A stretch of 64,000 nt of DNA from Thiotrichales bacterium (GTDB lineage Bacteria > Pseudomonadota > Gammaproteobacteria > Francisellales > CACEW01). The position numbers and the translations under genes are program-made. How positions within the stretch are numbered: position 1 is the stretch's first letter; each line of letters opens with the position of its first letter. This document shows positions 6,956-34,330 of the stretch, piece after piece. The notes beneath the pieces were generated by a model, which searched no databases, was not told the DNA's origin, and saw only the letters and a list, made by a program, of their open reading frames with translations. Location of the stretch: positions 49,758 through 113,757 of the forward strand of contig CANJUQ010000002.1 of NCBI GenBank assembly GCA_947478175.1, given 5' to 3'.

Positions 6956-6972
6956 AATTATTTTTTAAATTT

Positions 6973-9786: not shown

Positions 9787-9832
9787 AAATCAAAATCTTA
9801 TTGTTTATAATTAATAACAATATTGTACGCCA

Positions 9833-9936: not shown

Positions 9937-9943
9937 ATTAAAA

Positions 9944-11781: not shown

Positions 11782-12459
11782 ATGAACCTCGCTGTTCGCT
11801 ATGTTTTATTTACTTTCCCACCTGTATTACTAGCCACCCTGCTCTGTCTCTTATTTATTGATAAACCCACAGCTATCCGTACGGCCCAATGGGTTTCTGA
11901 AAAATCGATTTCTACAACACCAGCACTAATTTCAGGGGATCTTTTAAATTTATTAACAGAATTGGTTTATTTGGGCGTCACCTGTTGGATGGTTCTTTAT
12001 TTTTTCTTTAGGACCGCCGGAAAAAATTCAAAATTTTTAGACTGCTTAGCTTTCATGTCGCTAACTATGGCCGTTGCTTTTTTTATTAAATCCACTTTGC
12101 AACTTTTCTTTGGACGGTATGTTCCTCGCTATGCCGATAGCAATATTTTAATTTTTGTTCGCAATAAAAGTCTTTATGGTTTTCATTGGTTTCAAGCAGG
12201 GAGCTTTCCATCCGGACACATGTGTGTTTTTGGGGCAGGACTCACAGCACTGGTCCTGTTTTATCCAAAAACAAAACCCATCGCGATTCTGTTAGGACTG
12301 GGGCTCGCAATCACCATGGTCCTTCTAAATTACCACTTTGTGAGCGACGTCATTGCGGGAGGGTACATTGGAATAAGCCTGGCGTTAGCGATGGCATCCG
12401 TAGTGCTGAAGAGTGGAAAACAAACCCACCACTGCCCATCCCTGAAGGAAGAGGCGTAA
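11782..12459 (+). CDS. PAP2-family membrane phosphatase
   Basis: SFPSGH and HFVSDVIAG motifs, multiple hydrophobic segments. Confidence 0.9.
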   Translation: MNLAVRYVLFTFPPVLLATLLCLLFIDKPTAIRTAQWVSEKSISTTPALISGDLLNLLTELVYLGVTCWMVLYFFFRTAGKNSKFLDCLAFMSLTMAVAFFIKSTLQLFFGRYVPRYADSNILIFVRNKSLYGFHWFQAGSFPSGHMCVFGAGLTALVLFYPKTKPIAILLGLGLAITMVLLNYHFVSDVIAGGYIGISLALAMASVVLKSGKQTHHCPSLKEEA

Positions 12460-15064: not shown

Positions 15065-16496
15065 TGGAATTTTTCTCACTATTTTTTTCTAATTTTTCTG
15101 GATGTTTTTTATATTTATTTCTTGTCTTGGCTAACCAGACAGCAGGCAGACTCATGAAGATCAAACCCAAACTAATCATCACGGCATAGTGAACAATACT
15201 GCCCGCATTGATATTCGAAGGGGGTAAAAACCCAATCAAAATAGTCACAACAGACCCGATAATGCCCATCACGCCGACAACCCCAGTCCCCCAAGCACCA
15301 CCTGGAATCTGATAACCGTTGATCAAACTATTATTTTTTCGAGACCTGATTTTCAAAACAATGCCGGCTATGAACATTAAAATATACATAAACATATAGA
15401 GCTGAGCGGCCAGTACGTTTAGATACCAATAAGAGGCGTTAATACTGGGAAGTAAGATAAAAATAACCAAGGTACAAGTGACGATGGCTGCTTGAATTAA
15501 TAACAAAGAGACAGGCGCTCCGTAATAATTTTCTTTCAGCAACCACTGGGGAAAATGCCCCTGCCGACCTGCATAATGCAAGCCCCGAGTCGGAGCGATC
15601 AGCCAATTATTTAACCCGCCTAAACCACCAATAATTAAAGCCCCGCCAATCATAGGCATCAGCCAATGCACGTGGTAATCACTAAAAAATACATTGAACG
15701 CCTGCATGATTCCCGCAATTAAACTTAACTGGGACTGAGGCATGACAATCGCGATAGATAAAGAACCCAATACCAAAGTAATTAAAATAAAAGCCGTCGC
15801 AATGGCCAAGGCTCTCGGGAAAGCCGTCTTGGGATTTTTAGTCTCTCGGACATGGATGGTCGCGATTTCAATACCACACATAGACAACATCACGCCCGTC
15901 AAAGTCACCCAAAGATCTGGGTGAGAAAAACTAGGAATCAAAGCCCGCGGATGTAAATCCACATGCATCGGCTGACCCTTCCAAACCCAAATAATTCCGG
16001 TCGCAATAATCATGGCCATGGGTAAAACCAAGCCAAATAAGCTGCACAGATTGGCAAAAAAACCAGAGGCTTTCATGCCAAATAAATTCAAAAAAGTAAT
16101 AATCCAGAAAGCTGCGAGAATAAATAACATCAAGAAAATTCTGGACTCTGCCCAAGCAGGACAAAATAAATAAGCGACAGTTCCAGCCACAAAAGAAAGT
16201 AACGCCGGGTAATAAACAACGTTTTCAATCCATTGATACCAAATAGCCACAAAACCCCAACGAGGCCCTAAAGCTTCTCGAACCCAACGATAGATTCCAC
16301 CTTCGCCTTCATGAGCGGCAGAAGCCAGCTCAGCGGAAATCATCCCTGAGGGGATTAAGAAAAACAGCGCCCCTAAAATAAAAAAAGCAACGATATTGCT
16401 GCCAAACAAAGCCGTCGCCGGCAAATTTCGAATGCTATCAACTGATCCAATCGTGATTAAAACTAAACTCATCACGCCCAAGGTTTTCAGAGACAT
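15057..16496 (-). CDS. APC-family amino acid permease (GadC-like)
   Basis: SIRNLP, AELAS..EGGIYRWV, GIEIA..H; about 12 TM segments. Confidence 0.9.
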   Translation of the reverse strand: MSLKTLGVMSLVLITIGSVDSIRNLPATALFGSNIVAFFILGALFFLIPSGMISAELASAAHEGEGGIYRWVREALGPRWGFVAIWYQWIENVVYYPALLSFVAGTVAYLFCPAWAESRIFLMLFILAAFWIITFLNLFGMKASGFFANLCSLFGLVLPMAMIIATGIIWVWKGQPMHVDLHPRALIPSFSHPDLWVTLTGVMLSMCGIEIATIHVRETKNPKTAFPRALAIATAFILITLVLGSLSIAIVMPQSQLSLIAGIMQAFNVFFSDYHVHWLMPMIGGALIIGGLGGLNNWLIAPTRGLHYAGRQGHFPQWLLKENYYGAPVSLLLIQAAIVTCTLVIFILLPSINASYWYLNVLAAQLYMFMYILMFIAGIVLKIRSRKNNSLINGYQIPGGAWGTGVVGVMGIIGSVVTILIGFLPPSNINAGSIVHYAVMISLGLIFMSLPAVWLAKTRNKYKKHPEKLEKNSEKNSNA

Positions 16497-16626: not shown

Positions 16627-16995
16627 TTAATTTCTTTTGAACTTATCAAAGCCGCCGCCACTAGGACGTCCGCCGCCGAAGCCGCCGCCGCCACTAGGAC
16701 GTCCGCCGCCTGAAGAGCGTCCGCCGCCACCGCCGCCGCCAGTACGTTCGTCGTCATTAGCGACGTTAACGCGCAAAACTTTACCTTCGAATTCGGTATT
16801 GTTAGCAGCTAGGGAATTTTGAACGGATTGTTCATCTTGATACGTGATGAAACCGAAACCGCGTGAACGGCCTGTTTCGCGATCTTTGATGATACGGACA
16901 TCAGCAACTGGGCCGAATTGTGAGAAATGTTGCTCTAAAGTGTCAGCGTTGGTGCTGAAATTTAGGTTGCCGATGTAAATTTTTAATTGACTCAT
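16627..16995 (-). CDS. RRM RNA-binding protein with Gly-rich tail
   Basis: RNP2 IYIGNL, RNP1 RGFGFITY, repeated GGRPSGGG tail. Confidence 0.95.
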   Translation of the reverse strand: MSQLKIYIGNLNFSTNADTLEQHFSQFGPVADVRIIKDRETGRSRGFGFITYQDEQSVQNSLAANNTEFEGKVLRVNVANDDERTGGGGGGGRSSGGGRPSGGGGFGGGRPSGGGFDKFKRN

Positions 16996-17230
16996 GGTCT
17001 GATCCTTAAACATAAAAAAAACAAATGCCCAACTCGCCAGACCTTTCGCTAAAAAACTAAAAATTTAAAAAAAATTAATAATTAAAAATAAAAGACCGCA
17101 AAAATTAAGCCGGCGGATCATACCATGCTTCTTAAAGAATACTAGGTTGATTTGGCAAATCTTATAGAAGGTTTTGCAGGGGATTTTGCAGGGGGCTTTG
17201 AACATCTAAATTTACCCATAAAACCTAAGG

Positions 17231-19147: not shown

Positions 19148-19504
19148 TCAACAAACGGTCAACTTCCGACCAATGCCTTCTGCTAAAAGAGTTGCCGCAA
19201 AGGTATTTAAACTCACCCCTTCTTCTTTAGCTTGAAGCGCAAGAGCAGCATGTAAAGATTTTGGGACCCGTAAGCGCCATTGACCACTGTAGTTTTCAGC
19301 AACACTGGGCTTCGGAATGGGGTCTCCAAACTCTTCAGCCGTTTTAATCCATGATTTAATGGCTGACTTAATTTCAATGACTGCTTCTTCCACAGATTCA
19401 CCATCCGCAATGCAACCTGGCAAGTCCAAAGCTTCAGCTACATAGCCACCCCCTTCTTCTTTTGAGAGAGGCCGAATTGAAATGGGGTAATCAAATTTTT
19501 TCAT
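19148..19504 (-). CDS. hicB: HicB-family antitoxin
   Basis: DLPGCIADGESVEEA, then YSG..LRVPKSLH..LA..A..EGVSLN (RHH). Confidence 0.92.
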   Translation of the reverse strand: MKKFDYPISIRPLSKEEGGGYVAEALDLPGCIADGESVEEAVIEIKSAIKSWIKTAEEFGDPIPKPSVAENYSGQWRLRVPKSLHAALALQAKEEGVSLNTFAATLLAEGIGRKLTVC

Positions 19505-19870: not shown

Positions 19871-19958
19871 TGGCGGAGAGAGTGAGATTCGAACTCACGG
19901 TGCTTTTACACACGCCGGTTTTCAAGACCGGTGCTTTAAACCACTCAGCCATCTCTCC
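19871..19958 (-). tRNA. tRNA-Ser (anticodon TGA)
   Basis: GGAGAGATGGCTGAGTGG...CCGGTCTTGAAAACCGG, long variable arm, GTGAGTTCGAATCTCAC, encoded CCA; 88 nt. Confidence 0.97.
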
Positions 19959-23827: not shown

Positions 23828-24937
23828 ATGTCTCTCATGTTCCCAGCCGGACTTGCTATGGGCGAGGCGTTTTATGATCGAGTGAACGAACGTCAATTTT
23901 TAAAGAAAAATATCACTCATGGCTTACATACTGTTTTAATTGCTCCCAGAAGATTTGGAAAAACTTCCCTCATCAAAAAAACACTCGACGAAATGGAAAT
24001 TTTATATTTATGGCTCGACTTCATGGCGATTACTTCTCAAGAAGAAGCTCAAATCAGATTTTTAAATCACATCGGTGAACTGGTTATAAAAATAGCAAAA
24101 ACAGAAGAACGGCTTAAAAAAATTGCCCCTCAATATTTTCAACTATTTAAACCAGAGATCAGCTTGGGGATTCCTGGTTTTTTAAAAATTAGCTTTAAAG
24201 CCGACAATATCCCACAGGTCGGCATCAGTGCTGCTCTCATTAGCCTAGACCTACTGGCTCAAGCCTCAGGGATACGACTCGCCATTGTCTGTGATGAGTT
24301 TCAAGAAATTGTTGGAATAGACAAAGAAGCCACCCTCCAAGCTTCTATCAGACATGCTGCTGAACGCGCACAAGCCATTACTTATTTATTTTCAGGCAGC
24401 AAACATCGCCCCTTACGTCGCTTATTTAATGGCAAACAAAACCCACTCTACGAACTCTGCGATCAGATGACTCTTAATAGAATCTCAGAAGAAGATTATC
24501 GGGAATATTTACAACAAGAAGCTAAGAAAAAATGGGGACATCCTTTAGGCGGAGAAGTCCTTCGAAAAATTTTTTATTACACTGATTATTACCCCAAATA
24601 TATCAACGCCCTCTGCGCAAAAATCTGGTTCTCTGGCTTAGAACCCACCCCAGAACTAGTAGACACCCTATGGGGAAATTATATTTTTTCTAAAAAATCA
24701 GACATCGCCGAAGAACTAGATGACCTGACCTTGAACCAAAGAAAACTTTTAAAATATTTATGCTTCAATCCCACAGAATTTCCTTTTAGTCATGAGACTT
24801 CTCTCAGATCTGGCATGCCTGCCTCGGCTATTCAAACAGCACTTCCAGTCTTACTAGACAGAGATTTAGTGATTGAACTAGAAGGCATTCACACTGTTTT
24901 AGATCCTACTTTTAGATCTTATTTTGAGATGTTTTAA
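23828..24937 (+). CDS. AAA-type P-loop ATPase (archaeal-ATPase-like) with C-terminal winged helix
   Basis: APRRFGKTS, VCDEFQE, LFSGS, YPKYIN; C-terminal HTH-like region. Confidence 0.82.
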   Translation: MSLMFPAGLAMGEAFYDRVNERQFLKKNITHGLHTVLIAPRRFGKTSLIKKTLDEMEILYLWLDFMAITSQEEAQIRFLNHIGELVIKIAKTEERLKKIAPQYFQLFKPEISLGIPGFLKISFKADNIPQVGISAALISLDLLAQASGIRLAIVCDEFQEIVGIDKEATLQASIRHAAERAQAITYLFSGSKHRPLRRLFNGKQNPLYELCDQMTLNRISEEDYREYLQQEAKKKWGHPLGGEVLRKIFYYTDYYPKYINALCAKIWFSGLEPTPELVDTLWGNYIFSKKSDIAEELDDLTLNQRKLLKYLCFNPTEFPFSHETSLRSGMPASAIQTALPVLLDRDLVIELEGIHTVLDPTFRSYFEMF

Positions 24938-25513
24938 ATGCTAAATAATTCCCCGAAAACTCTAAAAACCTGCATCATCGTCGACCGCGATGGCGTCATT
25001 AATTTTGATTCGCCTGACTATATAAAAACCCCTGACGAATGGATCCCCATCCCTGGCAGCCTCGAAGCCATCGTAAAATTCAATCAGGCTGGTATCCCCG
25101 TTGCAATGGCGACTAATCAAGCCGGCCCGGCTCAGGGAAAATTTTCACATGAAAATTCAGAAAAAATCTTTAACAAAATGCTAGAAAATTTAAAAAATCT
25201 GGGGGGCCATTTTGATTATATAGCCCAGTGTAAACATCATCCTGAGGACCACTGTGAATGCCGAAAACCAAAACCCGGTTTACTAATAGAAATCTCCAAA
25301 AAACTAAATATTAATTTATCTAACTGTATTTTTATTGGCGATAGCTTGAAAGATATTCAAGCTGCTCAAAGTGCCGGCGTAAAACCCATCTTAGTTTTGA
25401 CAGGGAATGGCTTAAAGACTCAAGAAAAATTAAAAAAAATAAATCTCTCAATAGATATTTATTTAAATCTTCAGCAGTTTTCAGAGCATTATTTTAATAC
25501 CCCTAAGATCTAA
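24938..25513 (+). CDS. gmhB: D-glycero-D-manno-heptose 1,7-bisphosphate phosphatase
   Basis: DRDGVIN, TNQ, CKHHPEDHCECRKPKPG, IGDS. Confidence 0.93.
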   Translation: MLNNSPKTLKTCIIVDRDGVINFDSPDYIKTPDEWIPIPGSLEAIVKFNQAGIPVAMATNQAGPAQGKFSHENSEKIFNKMLENLKNLGGHFDYIAQCKHHPEDHCECRKPKPGLLIEISKKLNINLSNCIFIGDSLKDIQAAQSAGVKPILVLTGNGLKTQEKLKKINLSIDIYLNLQQFSEHYFNTPKI

Positions 25514-26138
25514 GATTGACGCTCTGAACAAAGTCCTTAATCAGCTTTGGTGAGACTTCTTCCCATTGGCTCAAAGTCATACGATATAAAACTTGCCTAG
25601 AAAAAAAATGCTCTTTTGAGACTCTAGGATGATAAAAATCATCTTTGGATTCATGAGTCATTCCAAGCTTTTCCATGATGCGAATAGATTTTTTATTCAA
25701 TAGAGAAGTAATCGACACTATTTCAGGTAACTTCTGTTTTGAAAAAGCCCATTGCAAAACAAAGGCTGCGGCCTCTATCGCATAACCCTTTCCCCAATGA
25801 TTTCTGACTAGCTTCCAACCAACACCAACGGCAGGCGTGAAATGCGCTTTAAAATCATGAATGGTTAGTCCCACAGATCCAATGAACTCACCCGTAGATT
25901 TGAGCTCGCAAGCCCACAAACAAAAACCAAGATTTTCAAATTCTTTTCTTCTAGCAGCTATTTGATTATTACTTTCTTCAATAGTTAGAAGACCCGGGGT
26001 AAAACGCATGACTTCTTTATCTTGGTTCATCGCTGAAAATGGCTCTAAATCTTGATCTCTCCAAGGTCGTATGATCAATCGATGCGTTTTAATAGAAAAT
26101 TCAGACTGGGTTTGTCCATCACTCATCAATACTTTCAA
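25503..26138 (-). CDS. GNAT acetyltransferase (RimJ/RimL-like)
   Basis: IKTHRLIIRPW, HWGKGYAIEAA, N..SIRIMEKLGM; TTG start overlaps the ATP-grasp stop (alternative ATG 26126). Confidence 0.9.
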   Translation of the reverse strand: MKVLMSDGQTQSEFSIKTHRLIIRPWRDQDLEPFSAMNQDKEVMRFTPGLLTIEESNNQIAARRKEFENLGFCLWACELKSTGEFIGSVGLTIHDFKAHFTPAVGVGWKLVRNHWGKGYAIEAAAFVLQWAFSKQKLPEIVSITSLLNKKSIRIMEKLGMTHESKDDFYHPRVSKEHFFSRQVLYRMTLSQWEEVSPKLIKDFVQSVNLRS

Positions 26139-27409
26139 TCTATGCCTATGACAGAAACACTCTGAAAATTCTTGAGAATCTCAAAGTCATTTTCCAAAAT
26201 CTCATGATCATCATTCCAAGCTTCTATGCTGGCTGATATATCTCTTAATCCCTTGCATCCCGACATTTCACTTCCAATATCAACTAACCATTTTATTTTG
26301 TGCTGGCTTTTTATATTGGGAATCAGAAGCTCTTTAACAACACCAGGAATCATTGGGAAAATACCGCTTAAATAGTGCGTTTTTATTTCCATGGATAAGG
26401 GCGAATCTGGAAGCGTAAATGGGATCTGCATTTCAATTTTGAAAGCAATATCTTCGAAACCAATGCCGTATTCTTTTTTGTACATTGGCGTAACAACAGC
26501 GCCTGGACTTCTCGCAGCAATTTCTAAAAATACTATTTCACCAGAATCTTTGATAAACATTTCGTGGTGGCTGGTCCCTGTATGAAAGTCTAGGGTATCC
26601 AAAACAGATTCATTGAAAGAAAAAATTCTTTTTACAATGGGGTCCTTATTTTCCAAGGGAAAGCTAATGACTGATTTCCCAAGTTGAAAATCAAAGTTTG
26701 GGTTGGTGTACTGACAACAGACTGCAAAGAGTGTTTTGCCATTCTGACGAATGGTATCGCAATGATATAAAGTCCCAGAAATAAACTCTTCAACTTCATA
26801 CTCCATATGGCTAGAAGTATTTTTTAATGCACCGCCAAGTTCTTTCAAAGAATGAATAATCTCAACCCCTGCACCACCCAATAATTTTGTTGGTTTTATT
26901 ACAAAGGGCAGCTTGAATTCTGTTTTTAGATTTTCAAATAAAAGATCAATTTTACTGTCATGTTCAGAAACAAATTTCTTGTATTTTGGAAGACGAATGT
27001 TGGCTTTACCCAAAGCATCTTTCATTAAAACTTTATCTCTAAAAACCAAAGTTTGTTCAAAGCCCATGCCTGGTATCTTCAGTTCATCTCTTAGTTGGGC
27101 AGCTAAAAGAAGATTATCTTCAGACTGACAAATGACTCTAAGAAATTCAGAGTTTTTTAATTCTTCTTGAATAATTTTTTTTGCAAAAGAAAAATTTATT
27201 TTCTCAAGATGCGCGGACTCAGGCTCTGGCGAAGCTTCAATGCGTGAAAAATATTTTCCATAAAGCGCATTAAATTTTTTGAAATCATGACTTGATGTAA
27301 TAGCCACTAATCTAATTTTATTTTTAGATAAATCCTCTAAGTCATAATTCATCATCTTTGTGCAGGTGTTAATAATCACTGCTGTTTTCATTGAAATCAT
27401 TGAAAGCAT
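26135..27409 (-). CDS. ATP-grasp ligase (L-amino-acid ligase-like)
   Basis: FRDKVLMK, PFVIKPT..GGAGV, VEEFISG, HHEMF, FLEIAARSPG; GGAGA RBS 6 nt before ATG 27409. Confidence 0.88.
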   Translation of the reverse strand: MLSMISMKTAVIINTCTKMMNYDLEDLSKNKIRLVAITSSHDFKKFNALYGKYFSRIEASPEPESAHLEKINFSFAKKIIQEELKNSEFLRVICQSEDNLLLAAQLRDELKIPGMGFEQTLVFRDKVLMKDALGKANIRLPKYKKFVSEHDSKIDLLFENLKTEFKLPFVIKPTKLLGGAGVEIIHSLKELGGALKNTSSHMEYEVEEFISGTLYHCDTIRQNGKTLFAVCCQYTNPNFDFQLGKSVISFPLENKDPIVKRIFSFNESVLDTLDFHTGTSHHEMFIKDSGEIVFLEIAARSPGAVVTPMYKKEYGIGFEDIAFKIEMQIPFTLPDSPLSMEIKTHYLSGIFPMIPGVVKELLIPNIKSQHKIKWLVDIGSEMSGCKGLRDISASIEAWNDDHEILENDFEILKNFQSVSVIGID

Positions 27410-27425
27410 TGAAAGTCTCCTAGTC

Positions 27426-28589
27426 TTAGAATTTTTTACATAAAAATAAAAGCGCAATGACGGCTGCAGTCAATCCGCTGAGATACCAAATTAAATTTCC
27501 ATCATAGGCATAGACGCTCATGCCCAGCATGGGTGAGAAAAATGAAGCTAATGAAAATACCGTCTGGTAAAGCCCCATGCTCCCGCCCTTTTTTTCGCCA
27601 GAAGCGCGAAGCAACATGGCTAGCTGAGCCGGGAACAAAATAATTTCTCCAAACGTCCATAAAACACAAGAAAAAATGACTAAAAGAACATCTTTTGCCC
27701 AAGGTAATACAAGAAAACCAAGACCGATGAGTAGCACACCAGAGGCACATACAAAATTAGATTTTTTATTTTTTAATATATGCGTGATGGGGACTTGAAA
27801 AAATGCAATCAAAACGCCGCTGATGACATATAAAAAAGAAATAAAACTGGGAGTGAAATTCTGACTGTTTTTTAAGAACAAAGGATAAGTAGAAAGACTC
27901 TGGTTAAAAACAAGTAAAATAAAAAACATCAGCACTAGCAAAAAATAAAAATTAGATTGACTGACTTGGCTTTGATTATTCCCTGTGGCTTCACTCTTGG
28001 GATTTTTATTTAATTTTTGATCTTTCATAGAAAAAATAATTAAAAAAGAAATCAGAGAAGAAAAAGCATTAAAGACAAACACAAAATAAATATCTTTGCT
28101 TGCTAAAAAACCAGAAATCGCCGCACCAAAAGCCATTCCAAGATTAATAGCCACCCTTCTTAGGGCGACAATTTTTTCTAGAGATCCCTGATGCTCGCCA
28201 TGTGTGATCGTCAGTATGAAGGCCGGTCTAAAAATATTGGACGAAACGCCGAAGCCACACATCAAAATAATCAATAAGAGGGGGACTTTTATGACACCCA
28301 AAGGAAAAAGTAAGAGCGCACTTGAAAGCAAACTTATTTTGCAAACTCTCAAAGGGGTTAGCCGATCACTCAATAGGCCACCCAGATAACCGCCCACAAT
28401 GCTAAAAAAACCAAAAAGAGAGAGCACGATTCCAATCTCTATGACGCTGTAATGCAGCGAATTTAAATAAAGCGATAAATAAATAATGATCATTAAGCTC
28501 ATGGCGTTAATAAATCCTGCGGAAAATATTCTCCAGGTCTCTTTCGAGAATCCTTTATAAGGGACCAGTAAATAATTGACGGCTTTCAT
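27426..28589 (-). CDS. MFS efflux transporter
   Basis: GGLLSDRL motif A, INLGMAFGAAISG, about 12 TM segments. Confidence 0.9.
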   Translation of the reverse strand: MKAVNYLLVPYKGFSKETWRIFSAGFINAMSLMIIIYLSLYLNSLHYSVIEIGIVLSLFGFFSIVGGYLGGLLSDRLTPLRVCKISLLSSALLLFPLGVIKVPLLLIILMCGFGVSSNIFRPAFILTITHGEHQGSLEKIVALRRVAINLGMAFGAAISGFLASKDIYFVFVFNAFSSLISFLIIFSMKDQKLNKNPKSEATGNNQSQVSQSNFYFLLVLMFFILLVFNQSLSTYPLFLKNSQNFTPSFISFLYVISGVLIAFFQVPITHILKNKKSNFVCASGVLLIGLGFLVLPWAKDVLLVIFSCVLWTFGEIILFPAQLAMLLRASGEKKGGSMGLYQTVFSLASFFSPMLGMSVYAYDGNLIWYLSGLTAAVIALLFLCKKF

Positions 28590-28647
28590 CTGTGATTAAT
28601 TTTCCAAAGAAATTTATTGCTATCTATTGGGCTCAGCCATTTTATTT

Positions 28648-29640
28648 TTAAAGTTTCGACTGTATTTGATGCGTGACCATTGTGAGCTCTCTAATAGGCG
28701 TTTTTCTTAAATAAGCATGAATATTTTCAACTGCCTCTCGAAAATAAAATCCATAGTTTTCTTCTGTGACATAACCAATATGCGGAGTTGCCAGGACATT
28801 GGGCAAGCTCCGAAATGGATGATCAAGGGGTAATGGCTCTATGTTAAATACATCCAGACCCGCACCAGCGATTTGGCCGCTTTTTAATGCGACGATCAAA
28901 TCGTCTTCATTCACAATGGCTGCTCTTGAAGTATTAATCAGATAAGCACTGGGTCGCATCGTTAAAAAATCTTTCGCACCAATAAGATTTTTAGTTCTTT
29001 CGCTCAAAACCAAATGTACAGAAACAAAATCACTAGATTCTAATAAATCTTGTTTAGAGCTTGCTAAAGAAATACCGAGAGAATCTGTTTTATCTTTTGT
29101 TAAATTTTGGCTCCATGCCATAACATCCATTCCAAATGCTTTTCCAATTTTTGCAACTTGAGTGCCAATTTTACCAAGACCTAAGATACCCAGGCGTTTT
29201 CCATGCAAGCCAATACCTACCGTGCTTTGCCAAGGTCCCGACTGTCTCAACAAAAGAGATTCTTTTGTAATATGACGAGCCAGGCCAAGAATTAAAGCCC
29301 ACGTATGTTCAATAGGAGGCTCCGGCAGGCTTCTTGTCCCACAAACGACGATTCCATTTCTACTCGCAAAATTAAGATCAATCGCTGCATTGCGCATTCC
29401 CGAGGTCACTAATAATTTTAACTTAGGCAATTTTGACAGAAGCTCTGCATCAAACACTGTTCGTTCACGCATCATCACTAAGATTTCTTGATCTTTAATT
29501 TTTTCTATCAACTGCGCTTGAGCTGAAGGTGGATAATAAGTGCTGATAAATTGAGTTTTTACTTGGTCTTTTAGCGATGACCAATCAGCCATTCTTTCTG
29601 CTACTTTTTGATAATCATCGAGCACAGTGCAATTAAGCAT
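28648..29640 (-). CDS. D-isomer-specific 2-hydroxyacid dehydrogenase
   Basis: VLDDYQ, GLGKIG, INTSR, AGLDVFNIEPL, TPHIG; AGGAGG RBS before ATG 29640. Confidence 0.92.
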   Translation of the reverse strand: MLNCTVLDDYQKVAERMADWSSLKDQVKTQFISTYYPPSAQAQLIEKIKDQEILVMMRERTVFDAELLSKLPKLKLLVTSGMRNAAIDLNFASRNGIVVCGTRSLPEPPIEHTWALILGLARHITKESLLLRQSGPWQSTVGIGLHGKRLGILGLGKIGTQVAKIGKAFGMDVMAWSQNLTKDKTDSLGISLASSKQDLLESSDFVSVHLVLSERTKNLIGAKDFLTMRPSAYLINTSRAAIVNEDDLIVALKSGQIAGAGLDVFNIEPLPLDHPFRSLPNVLATPHIGYVTEENYGFYFREAVENIHAYLRKTPIRELTMVTHQIQSKL

Positions 29641-29843
29641 GGAAAGCCTCCTAGAACCTGGAAAAAATACATTTGCTATATGGGCTGGTTTTTTGGATGA
29701 AACTAAAGAGAGTCTTTGTAAATTTCTAATCATATTTTCGGGCGTCTTTCTGATAAAAAATAAAAATAACTTTATGCATTTATGTATTAAAAAATTTAAA
29801 AATATTACATTACATTCTGTTCAGCTTAATCCGGAGATTCGTC

Positions 29844-30908
29844 ATGTTTACAACATGCTCGCAATATACAGAAATTACATTGACCGACAAAGAGCGTCTT
29901 AATATTGCAGAGGGCTTGTCAGATATAAAATACGACCCCAATGGCAATGATAACTACATCTGTGACGTGAGAATTTCGGCTTATAGATTCTTCCCAGAAC
30001 GGGTATTGAAAATCTTTGAAAAAGAAAAAGCTTCTTGCAATCCATCCCCATGCATCGTGATTAATAACCTACCCATAGATGACAAAATATCGGGCAGTCC
30101 TTCCTTTGAAGAAACTGGTCTTTCTTATAAATCTGGAACATTAAGCGAAAATACAATCATTGCCGTTTCTTTACTTTTAGGAGAGCCCTACTCGGTTAAA
30201 TTTGAGGGACTTGAGCTGGTTAATAATATTGTCCCCCACAAGAATCATTTAGATAAATATACGGGCCTTGGATCAAAAGCAGAGTTAGATCTTCATATAG
30301 AAAATTCTGCGTTGAAATTTATATTTGACGATGATTGCTCACCCTCAGGGGTCCTACTTCTTGGCTTAAGACAAGACCCAAACGCCTCTGTTAACACCTA
30401 TTTTTCAGATGCTTGTTTAGCCTTAAAATTACTCGATAGTGAGACTCTAAAAATTCTAAAGTCACCCCTTTTCAATGTAAAACTCCCCTATAGATGGCGG
30501 GAAATTATGAAAAGAACAATGACAGCCAAAGTACCGCTTATCTCCGGACCCGATCATTCGCCGAGAATTCATGCTGCTTTTTATCCTGACATGGTTCACA
30601 TAGATGACAAAGAGGCTCGAGCCGCCTTCGATAAGTTTTATTACGCTTTAAAGAAAGTGTCTGTCGGAATCGATATCAAACCAGGACAGTTGGTTTACGT
30701 AAATAATAGGTTTTCATTGCATGCTCGTGGCTCATTTGATCCTACTTATGATGAAAATGGATTGGGATATAGATGGCTTCAACGTACTTTTATAACGCAA
30801 GATTTATGGGCCATGCGAGATTTCAGGCTAACCGGCAGAATTTATGATCCTGGTTTAACAATGATTAAATCCATTGTTGATTTGGAAGAGCCCCTAACTG
30901 TCTCATGA
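29844..30908 (+). CDS. Fe(II)/2-oxoglutarate dioxygenase, TauD/clavaminate synthase-like
   Basis: LDLHIEN (HxE), NNRFSLHARGSF (distal His), RWLQR. Confidence 0.88.
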   Translation: MFTTCSQYTEITLTDKERLNIAEGLSDIKYDPNGNDNYICDVRISAYRFFPERVLKIFEKEKASCNPSPCIVINNLPIDDKISGSPSFEETGLSYKSGTLSENTIIAVSLLLGEPYSVKFEGLELVNNIVPHKNHLDKYTGLGSKAELDLHIENSALKFIFDDDCSPSGVLLLGLRQDPNASVNTYFSDACLALKLLDSETLKILKSPLFNVKLPYRWREIMKRTMTAKVPLISGPDHSPRIHAAFYPDMVHIDDKEARAAFDKFYYALKKVSVGIDIKPGQLVYVNNRFSLHARGSFDPTYDENGLGYRWLQRTFITQDLWAMRDFRLTGRIYDPGLTMIKSIVDLEEPLTVS

Positions 30909-30943
30909 AAGAGCTCATCTCGACCCTCCCATCATGCCTTCAT

Positions 30944-32548
30944 TCAACCCAACCCTGTTTCATCTTTCCCCCTGGCAAATGCAAACCGGGATTCATCAGG
31001 CATTCTTTCCATCGGTGAATGCGCCCCCCCCATCACGACCAAAGAGGTTTTTCCTGGCGCCCTTTCTGGAAATTCTTTAGAAACAACCCGCTGGGCCTTT
31101 AATTCAAGAATCTCTTTACGCAAGGTAATCACTTGATGCCGAGTTCCCTCAACCTCTCTTCTAAAAAACTCATTAGCAGAACTAGAGGCTACTAATTCTT
31201 GCTGCGTCCGTGCCAACTCACCACGAAGACTTTGCAAAGCCTTATTCAATCCATCTCGCTCTGCTTTAAAATCTGATTTTTCTTTTTCAAATTTTTTTCT
31301 ATCTGACAGGGCCTCTTTTAAAGATTGCCCAACCCTCTGGGATTCAGCTTGGACCCTTGCAAGTTCTTTACTTTTTTGATCCAGCACCTTACGCATATCT
31401 TTTAATTCTTTTTTAGAATCTGCCTCTAATACCCCTTTCCCAAAAGCAACAGCAGCCAACTCACGCCCTAGCACTCCTAATCGCTCTTCTAAAAAATCTA
31501 TTCGATCCAAACGCTTTGTCGTATGCGTATCTAGCCATTTTGGACACCCTGTCACACGGAGTTGATTAAGAGGTTTCAGTCCTAAGCTTTTCAGGAAAGC
31601 AATAGACTCTAACATTCTCCCCAGTTTCGGGGAGTTACTCAGAGCCTGCAAACAGGTCGCCTCCAAAATACTTTTACTCGCCGCTTGAAGTGCCACACTC
31701 AATGCATTGACTGGATGCCGACCCCCAGTAGAAGCCATAGAAGATGGCAAGCTACTACTGACAGCCTCATAGGGACTATCCATGGTGGCCGCCAGATCCT
31801 CTTCTGACAGATAGATAGCGATCTCTCGCAGCCAATTCACACGACCTAAAAGCGCCGCTCGAAGCAATAAAGTAGAACCCTCATGAGCCCCACTGGTCTG
31901 GGTTAATAATTGATGCCACCCAATCGAATCTTCTTTTGCAAAATGCTGGGTTAACAAGTGAAATTTTTCAAAATTTTGAGCCTCATAGACTGGGCAGAGC
32001 AGCGCAAAATTCAAATACACACCTAGCTCTGAGGGAACTAGAAGGGTTCTCGCCAATATCACTTGAAAATAATCAAAACTAGGAATCACCAACGCATAGG
32101 ACAGCAACGATATATTTTGTTCTGCAGGCCCATCCCTGTCATCAGGACTCACCATATGAGTTCGGTATTTTTTTTCAAAAGCCCCATCACTCTTTTTTCC
32201 TGCTGTATAGAGAATTCTAAGAACAGTTTTCTGCCCCTGAATGATAGGCGGAGGAGTCTGCTCAGCGAGTTCATAAAAAATGGGCAAATGACCTTCTTTA
32301 TCTTCAGGAATTTTTGAGTCGTCCCACTCTTCTGTATCTGCTGTATCCCCAGAATCCACAGAGCCCTCAGAATCTATGACGGCAACACCTGCTCCCGAAG
32401 GACCCGAGACGTCCGAAACAGTTTTTGCATGTTCAATCAAAAGCGCACTTAACAATTTTTCCGACGGCGCCCCGGCGACAGGATTCTCTAAAACAACCTG
32501 ACTAGAAGCCGCACCCGAAGTCTCTTTCTTTTTTTTCTCTTTTGGCAT
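30944..32548 (-). CDS. Hypothetical protein with basic N-terminus, ankyrin-like segments and coiled coil
   Basis: MPKEKKKKE, STLLLRAALLGRVNWL, NALSVALQAA, heptad-rich C-terminal third; paralog of 32580-34295. Confidence 0.8.
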   Translation of the reverse strand: MPKEKKKKETSGAASSQVVLENPVAGAPSEKLLSALLIEHAKTVSDVSGPSGAGVAVIDSEGSVDSGDTADTEEWDDSKIPEDKEGHLPIFYELAEQTPPPIIQGQKTVLRILYTAGKKSDGAFEKKYRTHMVSPDDRDGPAEQNISLLSYALVIPSFDYFQVILARTLLVPSELGVYLNFALLCPVYEAQNFEKFHLLTQHFAKEDSIGWHQLLTQTSGAHEGSTLLLRAALLGRVNWLREIAIYLSEEDLAATMDSPYEAVSSSLPSSMASTGGRHPVNALSVALQAASKSILEATCLQALSNSPKLGRMLESIAFLKSLGLKPLNQLRVTGCPKWLDTHTTKRLDRIDFLEERLGVLGRELAAVAFGKGVLEADSKKELKDMRKVLDQKSKELARVQAESQRVGQSLKEALSDRKKFEKEKSDFKAERDGLNKALQSLRGELARTQQELVASSSANEFFRREVEGTRHQVITLRKEILELKAQRVVSKEFPERAPGKTSLVVMGGAHSPMERMPDESRFAFARGKDETGLG

Positions 32549-32579: not shown

Positions 32580-34295
32580 TTAATCACCCAGATCAAAACT
32601 AAAATCCTCTGAGCTATCTCTATCAGCAGATACAGCGCCTTCCTCTGACTCAGAAGCAAATTCAAAACGAGATTTAGATCTAGTAGTCGAATAATCAACA
32701 GGGCTCTGTTTCTTTCCTAAAAGACCCTCTCTAGGCACTGGAACAACCACTGGTGAAAAACTGCTTGCCATCACAAGCGCTGAGCGACTCTGAGCCGCTG
32801 ACAAGCTAGCTGACCCTGAATCTGTTTTTAGCGCTAATTTGTTCTGAAGAAATTTGACTTGTTCTTGCAAAGCCTGAATTGAAGCTCGCAGTTTTTTATT
32901 CTCACCTTCTAATTGCAAAAGATCCTTACGAACGCTACCCGCATCCTGACGGGATATTTCCAGTTCTTTTTTAGTCTTCGCCAGTTCAGCTTCTAGCCTT
33001 GAGACTCTTACTTCTGAAGCTTCTCGCTGAATTTTTTCTCGATCTAACAATCTCTGACTTTCACTTAATTTCGCCTGGGTCTGCGTTAAAAATTTATCTT
33101 TTTCTAGCAAATCTTTCTGCAATTTTTTAACTTGCTTCTGATCCCCGCTGGATACTAAATCTCTCCCAGCAGACAGTGCTGCCAAACTGGCACACAGCTT
33201 GTGTATTTCGCCCAAATATTTCGCACTCATCTCGTCATTTTCTTTTATCTGAACTTGAATCTGCTTTTCTAAATCAGCCAATCGCCCTAAAGAAACAAAA
33301 TCCTCAGGATTAATCCACAAAGGAGTTGCCTGAGTTCTCACTGCTTCAAGCGGCACGAGTCCCTTGAATATTAAAAAACTAATAGATTCCATCGCACTTC
33401 GAAATTTTAGGCTCAAAAGGGCCTCTCCCAGATACTCCGAACTACTGAGCAATTCTTGCTGCGCTCGACGCAAGGCCAAATCTAAAGCATTCAACATGAC
33501 AGGCCTGCGAGAGGACTCTTCAACAGAAGCCGGCTCTAAATCAGGAATCGATATGCTTAATTCCGCCGGAGATAAAAATGCTTCCATGGTATGGATCCAA
33601 GAGAATCGACCAATCCCTGCTGCACGTAAAAATAAATTCTGTCCAAGCATATCAATCGTATTTTCTGTCCAAAGCACACGCAGAACTGTGTGAGACGGTT
33701 CATCAAATTTTTCTATGAATAATTTTAATTTTTCATCACTCTCTGGAAGCCAACACGTCAGCGCATAATTTAAGTAATACCCAACATCCTCTGGCAGTTC
33801 ATCAGTCTTATCTAAAACAGCTTTAAAAAAATCAAGCTCTCCAGGAACGGCCAAGGCATACCCTAGTAAAGACAAAGCGTGCACGTGAGTTTTAAAAGCT
33901 TTACCGCTAGCACCCGCAGTACCAACACTGACACTCTCTGACAAAAAACTGATGGTGAATGTGTTATAGAAATCTAAACCATTCAAAGTAGTCCCTGAGG
34001 TCAAAAATTCAGCAATGCCTCTTTTTTGTCTTAGTCTTTGCAATTCTGTTGTGTAGTCTGGAATAACCGCTAAATCAGGCAACCAATTATTGGGGCCATA
34101 TTCTTTTTTAAGTTCTTCCAAAATAAGCGCTATCGCACTCTCTTGGGGTTCAGCGAATGCCCTGGGTACAAGCGCCTCTTCGGCACCTCCGCCCGCGCCT
34201 CCAGCCGCTCTCAAAGCGGATGCAGAACTCGCAGATTCTGAAGAAGAAACTACTTCTCTCTCTTTCTTACTCTTAATTTTATTTTTCTTAGGCAT
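32580..34295 (-). CDS. Hypothetical protein with basic N-terminus, ankyrin-like segments, coiled coil and acidic tail
   Basis: AAGGAG RBS then MPKKNKIKSKK; QNLFLRAAGIGRFSWI, NALDLALRRA; tail ESEEGAVSADRDSSEDFSFDLGD. Confidence 0.8.
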   Translation of the reverse strand: MPKKNKIKSKKEREVVSSSESASSASALRAAGGAGGGAEEALVPRAFAEPQESAIALILEELKKEYGPNNWLPDLAVIPDYTTELQRLRQKRGIAEFLTSGTTLNGLDFYNTFTISFLSESVSVGTAGASGKAFKTHVHALSLLGYALAVPGELDFFKAVLDKTDELPEDVGYYLNYALTCWLPESDEKLKLFIEKFDEPSHTVLRVLWTENTIDMLGQNLFLRAAGIGRFSWIHTMEAFLSPAELSISIPDLEPASVEESSRRPVMLNALDLALRRAQQELLSSSEYLGEALLSLKFRSAMESISFLIFKGLVPLEAVRTQATPLWINPEDFVSLGRLADLEKQIQVQIKENDEMSAKYLGEIHKLCASLAALSAGRDLVSSGDQKQVKKLQKDLLEKDKFLTQTQAKLSESQRLLDREKIQREASEVRVSRLEAELAKTKKELEISRQDAGSVRKDLLQLEGENKKLRASIQALQEQVKFLQNKLALKTDSGSASLSAAQSRSALVMASSFSPVVVPVPREGLLGKKQSPVDYSTTRSKSRFEFASESEEGAVSADRDSSEDFSFDLGD

Positions 34296-34330
34296 GCCTG
34301 ACACTCCTTTAAATTTTAAATTTTTATGTT

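What the first reader, a model, noticed from the sequence alone, without database searches (positions are those of the whole stretch)
25503..30908. Compact candidate NRPS-independent peptide cluster: CAS-like dioxygenase, dehydrogenase, MFS, ATP-grasp ligase, GNAT
Seen: four closely packed minus-strand genes (dehydrogenase, MFS, ATP-grasp, GNAT; gaps of 58 bp, 16 bp and a 4-bp overlap) diverge from an HxE-type Fe/2OG dioxygenase, with no regulator. Established: HxE clavaminate-synthase-like enzymes (AsnO, VioC, lysine hydroxylases) oxidise free amino acids; ATP-grasp L-amino-acid ligases paired with MFS exporters make Trojan-horse dipeptides (bacilysin BacD/BacE); the tabtoxin locus combines a CAS-like enzyme, a ligase, an MFS and a GNAT resistance acetyltransferase. 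Inference: a minimal pathway that makes a modified amino acid, ligates it to a carrier residue, exports it and protects itself by acetylation. I do not recognise this five-gene combination as a characterised cluster.
Basis: partly seen in the sequence, partly recalled or inferred. Interest (0 to 1): 0.75.

Follow-up and report, generated by a model that had tools for sequence, protein, structure and literature searches.

The report
Small ATP-grasp peptide gene cluster
A freshwater bacterium carries a compact set of genes that most likely oxidises an amino acid, joins it to a second building block and pumps the product out; the design principle is known, but this gene set and its product are uncharacterised.

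Summary
The five genes are real and packed as described, with two corrected starts. The dioxygenase has an intact HxE...H iron site and models as a free-amino-acid hydroxylase (AsnO, KDO1, VioC as nearest structures). The closest solved relative of the ATP-grasp protein is the rhizocticin L-amino-acid ligase RizA.

Dioxygenase, MFS and ATP-grasp form a recurring core. All 7 intact dioxygenase homologues (35-46% identical) whose neighbourhoods I read have an MFS and an ATP-grasp gene within 5 kb. They come from a metagenome contig, two Legionellaceae genomes, Pantoea and Rahnella plasmids, and Burkholderia. None of the three core genes has close kin in about 39 related genomes.

The dehydrogenase and the GNAT are different. 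They have 55-62% identical kin in relatives, in other gene contexts. A dehydrogenase role is still backed by an unrelated 2-hydroxyacid dehydrogenase at the same position in the closest intact locus. The GNAT is PA3944-like and is never conserved beside the ligase, though every homologue context I read also holds an efflux pump.

The cluster matches none of tabtoxin, bacilysin or the Hil operon. I found no paper on it. The product is unknown. It is a new variant of a known kind, of moderate interest.

The parts
29844..30908 (+). CAS-like (clavaminate-synthase-like, TauD superfamily) Fe(II)/2-oxoglutarate dioxygenase, 354 aa. It is a probable hydroxylase of a free amino acid.
   Evidence: PF02668 scores 33.5 bits. 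The NCBIfam GntD model scores 91 bits, below its cut-off of 345. AsnO is the best PDB sequence hit, E 4.7e-15, with the HxE and distal His aligned. In 36 homologues H151 and H293 are kept 36/36, position 153 is E in 32 and D in 4, R310 is kept 36/36 and R314 35/36. The AlphaFold2 model has pLDDT 90.6, and Foldseek ranks AsnO, KDO1, VioC, OrfP and NapI on top with TM 0.76-0.82. A GGAG box lies upstream of the ATG.
29641..29843 (.). AT-rich divergent intergenic region of 203 bp between the dehydrogenase and dioxygenase starts. It is the presumed site of promoters for both directions.
   Evidence: Sequence read. Consensus promoter-like sites are no more frequent than in shuffles (12 found against 16.2 expected). 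There is no Rfam match and no Fur-box match at up to 3 mismatches.
28648..29640 (-). D-isomer-specific 2-hydroxyacid dehydrogenase, 330 aa from the corrected start. It is the first gene of the minus-strand operon.
   Evidence: PF02826 scores 186.7 bits and PF00389 45.6 bits. No NCBIfam equivalog cut-off is reached; PGDH scores 207 against 454. The best PDB hits are 3gg9 and 4s1v (E 7e-59 and 3e-58), and McyI scores 6e-42. The start at 29640 has an AGGAGG box. Orthologues of 49-62% identity in relatives lie in other contexts.
27426..28589 (-). 12-helix-type MFS transporter, 387 aa, a probable exporter.
   Evidence: PF07690 scores 130.9 bits over its full length, and PF05977 (secretion-effector/EntS type) scores 33.5 bits. 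Weak NCBIfam hits go to Tet(A/B/C), an H+ antiporter family and EntS. It is 44% identical to the MFS beside the ATP-grasp homologue in L091, and 29-31% identical to those in L092, L013, L014 and L175. The best hit in relatives is 33%.
26135..27409 (-). ATP-grasp carboxylate-amine ligase of the L-amino-acid-ligase kind, 424 aa.
   Evidence: PF13535 scores 35.8 bits and PF07478 33.7 bits. A family profile hits RizA (4WD3) at E 1.4e-39 and BacD at 1e-17; the single sequence hits 4WD3 at 7e-18. That 4WD3 is RizA/apo-RhiM comes from passages of PMC13579937. Columns invariant in 25 homologues include K172-P173, E207, H281, E283, E296, R300 and G303. An AGGAG box lies before the ATG at 27409.
25503..26138 (-). 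PA3944-like GNAT N-acetyltransferase of the RimJ/RimL type, 207-211 aa. It is the last gene of the operon. Its 3' end overlaps the convergent gmhB by 11 bp.
   Evidence: PF13302 scores 115.4 bits. PA3944 is the best PDB hit at E 3e-39, in a gapless alignment of 177 residues. The catalytic Ser148 position is kept and the E102 position is Gly. The residue roles come from passages of PMC8072286. The start is TTG 26138 or ATG 26126.

Best explanation
This is a small NRPS-independent pathway for a modified-amino-acid peptide, or pseudopeptide. Its core is dioxygenase + MFS + ATP-grasp ligase.

Proposed steps:
1. The CAS-like Fe(II)/2OG enzyme hydroxylates, or otherwise oxidises, a free amino acid.
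2. The 2-hydroxyacid dehydrogenase does a redox step on the same building block or on its partner. It either oxidises the new alcohol or interconverts a 2-oxo and a 2-hydroxy acid.
3. The RizA-like ATP-grasp ligase activates one carboxylate as an acyl phosphate and joins it to the amine of the other unit.
4. The MFS pump exports the product.
5. The co-transcribed PA3944-like GNAT acetylates a free amine of the product or an intermediate. This would be either tailoring or self-protection.

Shown: gene order and spacing, family membership, intact catalytic motifs, the recurrence of the core trio, and the lack of close kin of the trio in related genomes.

Inferred: every substrate, the order of steps, the direction of transport, the bioactivity, and the roles of the dehydrogenase and the GNAT.
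For: Families and motifs.

The dioxygenase clade recurs with MFS and ATP-grasp. All 7 intact homologue contexts that I read have both genes within 5 kb:
- the window;
- L092;
- L175 and L176, two Legionellaceae genomes, in an island flanked by integrases;
- the Pantoea alfalfae plasmid L179;
- Burkholderia pyrrocinia L180, where the dioxygenase diverges from MFS-ATP-grasp exactly as in the window;
- the Rahnella plasmid L182.
A 30% identical Streptomyces homologue also abuts two ATP-grasp genes.

Within the window's own ATP-grasp family:
- L092 has dioxygenase-MFS-ligase intact.
- L014 has the dioxygenase in two frames.
- L013 keeps only a 75-residue remnant of it.
- L091 (ligase 46%, MFS 44%) has dehydrogenase-MFS-ligase in the window's order, with a non-orthologous dehydrogenase of 25% identity. 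An unrelated enzyme of the same family at the same position argues that this function is needed.

More distant relatives of the ligase (28-38%) sit beside TauD, PF10014, glutamate mutase, radical-SAM or aminotransferase genes, together with EamA, LysE or MFS exporters.

Acquisition: the dioxygenase was found in no other of the 39 scored relatives apart from one 26% hit. The best hit in relatives is 32% for the ligase and 33% for the MFS. GC is 0.35-0.38 across 25-30 kb against 0.39-0.47 in most flanks.

GNAT homologues sit by efflux pumps in 4 of 4 contexts read: the window, G000 contigs C13 and C20, and G006.

The design has published precedents. I saw passages only of the Hil operon paper (PMC3684760), mangotoxin (PMC13725569) and fuscazine (PMC13149037).
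Against: - No product, activity or expression data exist, and no RNA run holds the stretch.
- The five-gene set was seen nowhere else.
- The dehydrogenase has 49-62% identical orthologues in four relatives, beside an alpha/beta hydrolase, MscS and other genes, never beside MFS or ATP-grasp. It could be a resident bystander.
- The GNAT has two full paralogues and a fragment in the same genome, and kin in 10 of 17 same-family genomes. It was found next to none of the 166 other ATP-grasp loci. None of its 106 listed homologues, apart from the window's own protein, shares a contig length with an ATP-grasp homologue.
- The closest ligase homologues (55%, P0007 and P0008) and the closest dioxygenase homologue (73%, P0046) lie on contigs I could not read. 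Their listed contig lengths do not coincide.
- The ATP-grasp genes next to the Pantoea, Burkholderia and Legionellaceae dioxygenases are only 20-25% identical to the window's. The link is therefore between kinds of enzyme, not between orthologues.
- Several loci hold decayed copies: L011/L098, L112, L090, L013 and L014.
- All NCBIfam equivalog cut-offs are missed, so no substrate can be transferred.
Confidence: 0.55

Rival explanations
1. Only the dioxygenase, MFS and ATP-grasp genes form the functional unit. The dehydrogenase and the GNAT are resident genes that merely lie beside or inside it and act on other substrates.
For: The dehydrogenase and the GNAT have 55-62% identical kin in relatives, in unrelated contexts. 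B. pyrrocinia, L092 and the Pantoea and Rahnella plasmids have the trio without them. No GNAT lies beside any other ATP-grasp homologue. GNAT paralogues elsewhere in the genome sit in general resistance-like contexts.
Against: The dehydrogenase lies between the dioxygenase and the MFS, as the first gene of the operon, with a strong ribosome-binding site. L091 and Pseudoalteromonas rubra L023 carry a different 2-hydroxyacid dehydrogenase with the same ligase family. The GNAT start lies 8 bp after, or overlaps by 4 bp, the ligase stop.
Confidence: 0.2
2. The product is a metal-binding compound (a hydroxy-carboxylate metallophore), not an antimetabolite. A hydroxylated amino acid and a 2-hydroxy acid would supply the ligands, the ATP-grasp enzyme would join them, and the EntS-like MFS would export the product.
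For: The MFS hits the PF05977/EntS type. The dioxygenase and the dehydrogenase would both generate hydroxy-acid functions (inference). The Legionellaceae and L092 loci carry two MFS genes each. That ATP-grasp enzymes occur in some siderophore pathways such as vibrioferrin is recalled, not tested.
Against: No Fur-box match at up to 3 mismatches anywhere in the window. The ORFs scanned hold no receptor, reductase or NIS synthetase. The ligase is nearest to dipeptide ligases.
Confidence: 0.1
3. The unit serves primary metabolism or salvage. The MFS imports a compound that is oxidised and ligated for use inside the cell, for example as a physiological dipeptide.
For: Transport direction cannot be read from sequence. 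A paper seen only as a search listing reports an L-amino-acid ligase in staphylococcal sulphur amino-acid metabolism (PMC9486568). The genome is small (2.03 Mb), so retained genes may be metabolic.
Against: The core genes lack close kin in relatives. Related loci lie in integrase-flanked islands, on plasmids, or as decayed copies. That pattern fits accessory rather than core metabolism. The MFS resembles efflux families.
Confidence: 0.1
4. A VanH/VanA-like pair: the dehydrogenase makes a D-2-hydroxy acid and the ATP-grasp enzyme makes a depsipeptide for cell-wall remodelling.
For: The pairing of a D-2-hydroxyacid dehydrogenase with an ATP-grasp enzyme. Weak hits to VanH models (97.8 bits) and to Ddl models.
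Against: VanH cut-offs are missed by far (97.8 against 540). Ddl hits (E about 1e-10) are much weaker than RizA (1.4e-39). There is no VanX/VanY-type peptidase or VanRS. The presence of an MFS and a dioxygenase does not fit.
Confidence: 0.03

Closest known systems
Rhizocticin ligase RizA/RhiM (PDB 4WD3) and its cluster in Bacillus subtilis
   Same: It is the closest solved relative of the ATP-grasp protein: profile E 1.4e-39 and pairwise 7e-18. RizA joins L-Arg to an unusual amino acid by the acyl-phosphate route (passages of PMC13579937).
   Different: By my reading of the 265-residue alignment, about a quarter of the residues are identical. The window has no phosphonate genes. Substrate specificity cannot be transferred.
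Bacilysin (BacA-E): L-amino-acid ligase BacD with exporter BacE
   Same: Same logic: make a modified amino acid, ligate it with an ATP-grasp enzyme, export it. BacD is a profile hit at E 1e-17.
   Different: The BacD equivalog scores 27 bits against a cut-off of 850. No prephenate-branch enzymes are present. The modifying enzymes here are an Fe/2OG dioxygenase and a 2-hydroxyacid dehydrogenase.
Tabtoxin cluster of Pseudomonas syringae
   Same: I did not check this composition.
   Different: The window holds no beta-lactam-synthetase-type gene and no lysine-pathway-like genes of the tabtoxin route (Pfam lists). The composition of the tabtoxin cluster is recalled from memory, not tested here.
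Hil operon of Pantoea, Rahnella, Pseudomonas and Xenorhabdus (PMC3684760, passages)
   Same: It comprises amino-acid dioxygenase(s), a dehydrogenase, the PF13535 ATP-grasp ligase HilD and the MFS HilE. Its authors propose an oxidised amino acid ligated into a dipeptide. The end product is also unknown.
   Different: The Hil dioxygenases are PF13640 and PF10014 and its dehydrogenase is an SDR (PF00106). It also has a LysR regulator and a binding protein. Here the enzymes are PF02668 and PF02826, and there is no regulator.
Fuscazine (Fuz) and mangotoxin (Mbo) pathways (PMC13149037; PMC13725569; passages)
   Same: Free-amino-acid oxidation combined with stand-alone ATP-grasp ligases. In Fuz, the Fe/2OG enzyme FuzA is a VioC-like Arg 3-hydroxylase. 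Mbo also includes a transporter.
   Different: Those pathways use two ligases plus a hydrazine or alkyne machinery. None of that machinery is present here.
PA3944 of Pseudomonas aeruginosa (GNAT)
   Same: It is the closest solved relative of the GNAT (E 3e-39), and the catalytic Ser is conserved. PA3944 acetylates the Dab3 side-chain amine of polymyxins in vitro (PMC8072286, passages).
   Different: The substrate-side E102 position is Gly here. The passages I read report only in-vitro substrates for PA3944.

Membership tests
CAS-like free-amino-acid Fe(II)/2OG oxygenases (AsnO, VioC, OrfP, KDO1) | HxD/E...H iron-binding triad | tested here: met
   H151-x-E153 and H293 align with the AsnO ligands. 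In 36 homologues the two His are kept 36/36, and position 153 is E in 32 and D in 4.
CAS-like free-amino-acid Fe(II)/2OG oxygenases (AsnO, VioC, OrfP, KDO1) | C-terminal Arg that binds 2-oxoglutarate (RxxxR region) | tested here: met
   R310 is kept 36/36 and R314 35/36. They align with the RWLQR stretch of AsnO. Which Arg binds 2OG is recalled, not tested.
CAS-like free-amino-acid Fe(II)/2OG oxygenases (AsnO, VioC, OrfP, KDO1) | Overall fold like the solved members | tested here: met
   The model has pLDDT 90.6. Foldseek gives AsnO E 9.7e-28 with TM 0.78, KDO1 TM 0.82 and VioC TM 0.79, at about 21% identity.
CAS-like free-amino-acid Fe(II)/2OG oxygenases (AsnO, VioC, OrfP, KDO1) | Membership of a named equivalog (GntD, VioC, clavaminate synthase) | tested here: not met
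   Scores are 91 against a cut-off of 345, 58.7 against 418.6, and 56.1 against 450. No substrate can be assigned.
CAS-like free-amino-acid Fe(II)/2OG oxygenases (AsnO, VioC, OrfP, KDO1) | Turnover of a free L-amino acid | not testable with these tools
   This needs an enzyme assay.
L-amino-acid ligases (ATP-grasp; RizA, BacD, TabS type) | ATP-grasp domain above the Pfam threshold | tested here: met
   PF13535 scores 35.8 against 27, and PF07478 scores 33.7 against 24.
L-amino-acid ligases (ATP-grasp; RizA, BacD, TabS type) | Closer to characterised LALs than to other ATP-grasp classes | tested here: met
   With the family profile: RizA 1.4e-39, BacD 1e-17, BL00235 1.4e-17, Ddl 1e-10 or weaker, CPSase 1e-6.
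L-amino-acid ligases (ATP-grasp; RizA, BacD, TabS type) | LAL C-terminal domain 2 (PF18603) | tested here: not met
   It was not reported at E <= 0.001 for the window protein. It is present in the other ATP-grasp proteins of L023 and L175.
L-amino-acid ligases (ATP-grasp; RizA, BacD, TabS type) | Conserved nucleotide- and Mg-binding residues | tested here: inconclusive
   K172-P173, E207, E283, E296, R300 and G303 are invariant in 25 homologues. Assigning them to ATP or Mg binding is by recall, not by a structural alignment.
L-amino-acid ligases (ATP-grasp; RizA, BacD, TabS type) | Dipeptide formation from unprotected amino acids | not testable with these tools
   This needs an assay.
Tabtoxin-type cluster | Beta-lactam synthetase and lysine-pathway-like genes beside the ligase | tested here: not met
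   None appear among the Pfam hits of the 49 window ORFs. The defining gene list is recalled.
Hil operon | Tandem PF13640 and PF10014 dioxygenases, an SDR, a LysR regulator and a binding protein | tested here: not met
   None of these families occurs in the five genes or their flanks. The definition comes from PMC3684760.
PA3944-like GNAT | Acetyltransf_3 domain, full-length similarity and the catalytic Ser | tested here: met
   115.4 bits. E 3e-39 in a gapless alignment, with the Ser148 position kept and the E102 position not kept.
D-isomer 2-hydroxyacid dehydrogenases | Catalytic and NAD-binding domains, with a GxGxxG motif and an Arg/Glu/His triad | tested here: met
   PF02826 scores 186.7 and PF00389 45.6 bits. 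GLGKIG, NTSR, NIEP and TPHIGY are visible in the translation; reading them as the motif and triad is by recall. All equivalog cut-offs are missed.
MFS drug/metabolite exporters | Full-length MFS_1 domain with likeness to efflux subfamilies | tested here: inconclusive
   MFS_1 scores 130.9 bits and MFS_3 33.5 bits. Hits to Tet and EntS models are far below their cut-offs. Transport direction is not testable.

The most novel reading that the evidence does not exclude
The dioxygenase-MFS-ATP-grasp trio marks a widespread, uncharacterised class of oxidised-amino-acid peptides. The class would be exchanged horizontally between plant-associated bacteria (Pantoea, Rahnella, Burkholderia) and Legionella-like and other host-associated or aquatic lineages. 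The dioxygenase clade would make one new non-proteinogenic building block, possibly from the aspartate family. In this freshwater bacterium the pathway has been rebuilt with a recruited resident dehydrogenase and a resident acetyltransferase that serves as immunity.
Probability: 0.3. Interest if true: 0.65.

Novelty: new variant of a known kind. Interest (0 to 1): 0.45.

Why it matters
ATP-grasp peptide pathways are invisible to most cluster-mining rules, yet they yield potent antimetabolites such as bacilysin, tabtoxin, rhizocticin and mangotoxin.

This work gives a concrete, testable marker: a distinct clade of CAS-like dioxygenase that sat beside an MFS and an ATP-grasp ligase in every intact context I read, in at least five lineages. 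My four literature searches aimed at it found no paper on it.

If its product were identified, it would add a new building-block hydroxylase and a new ligase specificity. It would also show how a small-genome freshwater bacterium rebuilt an imported pathway with its own dehydrogenase and acetyltransferase. If the product turned out to be ordinary, the value would be limited to annotation.

Tried and rejected
- Island borders: there is no integrase near the cluster, the only tRNA lies 5.5 kb away at 19871-19958, and the flanking repeats are meaningless.
- Synteny: same-family genome G006 shares only gmhB over 38 kb, which is uninformative.
- Same-genus genome G001 is a limited record. Few of its candidates were scored and its letters were not given out. 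I did not pursue it. Only the dioxygenase search reports it with no candidates.
- Regulation: no Fur-box consensus match at up to 3 mismatches, no Rfam family in 25000-31500 at E <= 1, and promoter- and terminator-like sites below the shuffle expectation.
- Expression: no RNA holder is listed for the stretch. Laid contigs show identical sequence in lake and freshwater runs X5 and X7, with no variants in the five genes that say anything about function.
- Matching contig lengths between the homologue lists of ligase, dioxygenase and GNAT gave no coincidence apart from the window's own contig. The lists are incomplete: L092's proteins appear in neither.
- The ESM Atlas returned only generic ATP-grasp clusters.
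- Literature searches found analogues but no paper on this gene set or on the Pantoea, Burkholderia or Legionellaceae versions.
- The E-64 pathway uses an unrelated, glutathione-synthetase-like ATP-grasp enzyme (passages). I kept it only as a reminder that the carboxylate partner need not be an amino acid.
- I did not try to assign a substrate from pocket residues. The alignment to AsnO in that region is unreliable.

Full report
**Observation**

The window holds the five genes as described. Pfam and NCBIfam assign them as follows:
- 25503-26138 (-): an Acetyltransf_3 GNAT.
- 26135-27409 (-): an ATP-grasp_4 / Ddl-C protein.
- 27426-28589 (-): a full-length MFS_1 transporter.
- 28648-29733 (-): a D-isomer 2-hydroxyacid dehydrogenase.
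- 29844-30908 (+): a TauD-superfamily dioxygenase whose best curated models are GntD, VioC and clavaminate synthase, all far below cut-off.

The 58-bp and 16-bp gaps are exact. The ATP-grasp ATG at 27409 has an AGGAG box and matches the 424-aa database protein. The 4-bp overlap with the GNAT applies to a TTG start; the database protein starts at an ATG 12 nt further on, which leaves an 8-bp gap. The dehydrogenase most likely starts at 29640, which has an AGGAGG box and where the PDB alignments begin. The divergent spacer is therefore 203 bp. No regulator domain occurs in the cluster or in the flanking ORFs I scanned. The flanks are housekeeping genes (typA, dsbD, gmhB; aroB, aroK, efp, lysS) plus two unknown coiled-coil genes.

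**The proteins**

*Dioxygenase.* AsnO is the best solved sequence hit (E 4.7e-15), with HxE, the distal His and the RWLQR stretch aligned. In an alignment of 36 homologues, H151, H293 and R310 are invariant, position 153 is E in 32 and D in 4, and R314 is kept in 35 of 36. An AlphaFold2 model (pLDDT 90.6) is closest to AsnO, the lysine 3-hydroxylase KDO1, VioC, OrfP, NapI and CmnC (TM 0.74-0.82, about 21% identity). All of these act on free amino acids. The substrate cannot be named.

*ATP-grasp protein.* A profile of 25 homologues hits PDB 4WD3 at E 1.4e-39, well ahead of BacD (1e-17) and D-Ala-D-Ala ligases (1e-10 or weaker). The single sequence gives 7e-18. 4WD3 is RizA/apo-RhiM, the rhizocticin ligase that joins L-Arg to a phosphonic amino acid (passages of PMC13579937).

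*Dehydrogenase.* It is nearest to two structural-genomics 'phosphoglycerate dehydrogenase-related' proteins. Among characterised enzymes it is near McyI (6e-42) and glyoxylate reductases.

*GNAT.* It aligns without gaps to PA3944 (E 3e-39). It keeps the catalytic Ser148 position and has Gly at the E102 position. PA3944 acetylates the Dab3 amine of polymyxins in vitro (passages of PMC8072286).

**Relatives and contexts of the ligase**

In the 5.8-billion-protein collection the ligase has 21 homologues at 45-55% identity, all from metagenome sources. In the exhaustive representative search, 300 clusters score E <= 1e-30 and 1644 score E <= 1e-10.

I scanned the species-genome and metagenome collections and kept 79 and 78 loci. 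I then searched 167 loci with nine window proteins. The results, excluding the window's own locus, were:
- The GNAT matched no other locus.
- The dioxygenase matched 3 loci: L092, L014 and L013.
- The MFS matched 6 loci.
- The dehydrogenase matched 12 loci.

The closest readable loci are these:
- L091 (ligase 46%, MFS 44%) reads dehydrogenase-MFS-ligase with a convergent FAA-hydrolase gene.
- L092 (39%) reads dioxygenase-MFS-ligase, all intact.
- L014 (37%) has the dioxygenase in two frames.
- L013, Fastidiosibacter lacustris (34%), keeps only a 75-residue remnant of the dioxygenase.
- L090 (50%) has an MFS remnant next to a TraG gene.
- L011/L098 and L112 hold ligase fragments.

L091's dehydrogenase is only 25% identical to the window's. 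It is 48% identical to the one in the Pseudoalteromonas rubra locus L023, which combines this ligase family with a second ligase, a PF10014 dioxygenase, a dehydrogenase and an FAA hydrolase. Two unrelated members of the same enzyme family therefore sit with this ligase family, and in L091 at the same position as in the window. This is the main argument that the dehydrogenase works with the cluster.

More distant ligase relatives (28-38%) lie beside TauD, PF10014, glutamate mutase, radical-SAM, aminotransferase or aromatic-lyase genes. EamA, LysE or MFS exporters accompany them.

**Relatives and contexts of the dioxygenase**

Homologues at 42-47% identity occur in Legionella and Fluoribacter species, Variovorax and Pseudomonas. 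They also occur on Burkholderia, Pantoea and Rahnella replicons: 13 plasmid records match at E <= 1e-20, 7 of them at 42-46%. In a sample of 121 genomes of the Legionella family, 3 matched at E <= 1e-10, two of them at 46%.

I read seven intact contexts. All seven have an MFS and at least one ATP-grasp gene within 5 kb:
- the window;
- L092;
- L175 and L176, which read MFS ... dioxygenase - Asp/Glu racemase - unknown - LAL_C2-type ligase - MFS, between integrase genes;
- Pantoea alfalfae L179 and Rahnella L182, which read TetR - dioxygenase - MFS - three ATP-grasp genes - aminotransferase - FMN monooxygenase;
- Burkholderia pyrrocinia L180, where the dioxygenase diverges from MFS-ATP-grasp, the window's layout without the dehydrogenase.

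These are about five independent lineages, not seven. I did not open the records behind H1-H3, H6, H8, H9, H11 and H12. A truncated Vibrio copy (H13) has no annotated neighbour of this kind, but that annotation is incomplete. A 30% identical Streptomyces homologue sits between aspartate kinase, aspartate-semialdehyde dehydrogenase and diaminobutyrate transaminase on one side and two ATP-grasp genes on the other.

The ATP-grasp genes in the Pantoea, Burkholderia and Legionellaceae loci are only 20-25% identical to the window's. What recurs is the kind of partner, not the orthologue.

**Origin within this genome**

I searched 40 related genomes; G016 was never scored and G001 mostly was not. The results were:
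- The dioxygenase was found only as one 26% hit.
- The ligase reaches at best 32%.
- The MFS reaches at best 33%.
- The dehydrogenase has 62%, 62% (broken), 53% and 49% identical orthologues in G012, G006, G021 and G039. There they sit next to an alpha/beta hydrolase, MscS, FKBP and other genes.
- The GNAT has 10 of 17 same-family genomes with matches and two full paralogues in the window's own genome.

In the four GNAT-homologue contexts I read, a transporter lies within two genes:
- the window;
- G000 contig C13, where a GNAT-GrpB-GNAT fusion is followed by an MFS;
- G000 contig C20, which reads glyoxalase - tRNA_SAD - GNAT - beta-lactamase-fold - MFS;
- G006, which reads MatE-GNAT.

GC is slightly lower across the cluster (0.35-0.38) than in most flanks. 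No mobile-element border was found. I read this as an imported trio that was rebuilt with two genes of resident lineages.

The stretch occurs with identical sequence in freshwater and lake metagenome runs of at least three studies. No RNA holder is listed.

**Mechanism**

Best reading (0.55): an NRPS-independent pathway.
1. The dioxygenase oxidises a free amino acid.
2. The dehydrogenase performs a redox step on that unit or on its partner.
3. The ligase joins two units through an acyl phosphate.
4. The MFS exports the product.
5. The GNAT acetylates an amine.

One chemically coherent but unproven scenario runs through the aspartate family. AsnO is the best hit, and the neighbours include an Asp/Glu racemase and aspartate kinase. 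A beta-hydroxylated aspartate-type product would itself be a 2-hydroxy acid, which would suit a McyI-like dehydrogenase.

Rivals: only the trio is functional (0.2); a metallophore (0.1); salvage or primary metabolism (0.1); a VanH/VanA-like pair (0.03).

**Comparison with known systems, and novelty**

The design matches a known kind: bacilysin, tabtoxin, rhizocticin, dapdiamide, mangotoxin (passages), fuscazine (passages) and the still product-less Hil operon (passages). The cluster is a member of none of these. The defining genes of tabtoxin and the Hil operon are missing, and every equivalog cut-off is missed.

Four literature searches found no paper on this gene set or on its Pantoea, Burkholderia or Legionellaceae versions. 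The library lacks most subscription journals, and I opened no supplements.

Verdict: a real cluster and a new variant of a known kind. The substrate and product are unknown. Interest is moderate (0.45).

Noticed in passing
window 30944-32548 (-) and 32580-34304 (-): Two adjacent genes of 534 and 574 aa have no Pfam family. They are tandem paralogues (29% identity over 390 aa, E 9e-35) with coiled-coil-like C-terminal halves, and give only faint SMC-type hits.
   Followed up: partly
window 54842-59386 (+) and 59431-62517 (+): Two very large ORFs (1514 and 1028 aa) have no Pfam match at E <= 1e-6.
   Followed up: no
L202 (G000:C13) 1762-3411 and L203 (G000:C20) 200-4500: Paralogues of the GNAT sit in resistance-like neighbourhoods. 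One is a 549-aa GNAT-GrpB-GNAT fusion followed by an MFS. The other lies in the row glyoxalase/bleomycin-resistance fold - tRNA_SAD - GNAT - beta-lactamase fold - MFS.
   Followed up: partly
L058, L017, L093 (Parachlamydiales MAG, Nucleicultricaceae MAG, metagenome contig): L058 and L017 share the module glutamate/methylaspartate mutase (E and S subunits) - LysR - ATP-grasp ligase (33% to the window's). L017 and L093 add a downstream nitroreductase-family gene. L093 shows LysR - ligase - nitroreductase; only ORFs from the LysR gene onward were scanned in it. This may be a separate small pathway built on methylaspartate.
   Followed up: no
L023 (Pseudoalteromonas rubra) 5505-12395: A row of a LAL_C2 ligase, this ligase family (38%), a PF10014 dioxygenase, a 2-hydroxyacid dehydrogenase, an FAA hydrolase and a HlyD-type protein. 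Its dehydrogenase and hydrolase are orthologous to those of metagenome locus L091.
   Followed up: partly
proteins P0206, P0209, P0213, P0216: Relatives of the ligase (30-32% identity) are embedded in proteins of 1544-2122 aa, each with two matched stretches. This suggests fused or tandem ATP-grasp architectures.
   Followed up: no
L197 (G006:C16) 15255-16225: The orthologue of the dehydrogenase in a same-family genome is split into two frames with internal stops. It is probably a pseudogene or an assembly error.
   Followed up: no
window 8293-9786, 23828-24937, 40332-41705, 49112-50365, 19148-19504, 16627-17013: Several ATPase_2/AAA_14, DUF4143 and Schlafen AlbA_2 genes and a HicB antitoxin are scattered among housekeeping genes. 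There is also a 128-aa protein with a eukaryote-type RRM_1 domain.
   Followed up: no
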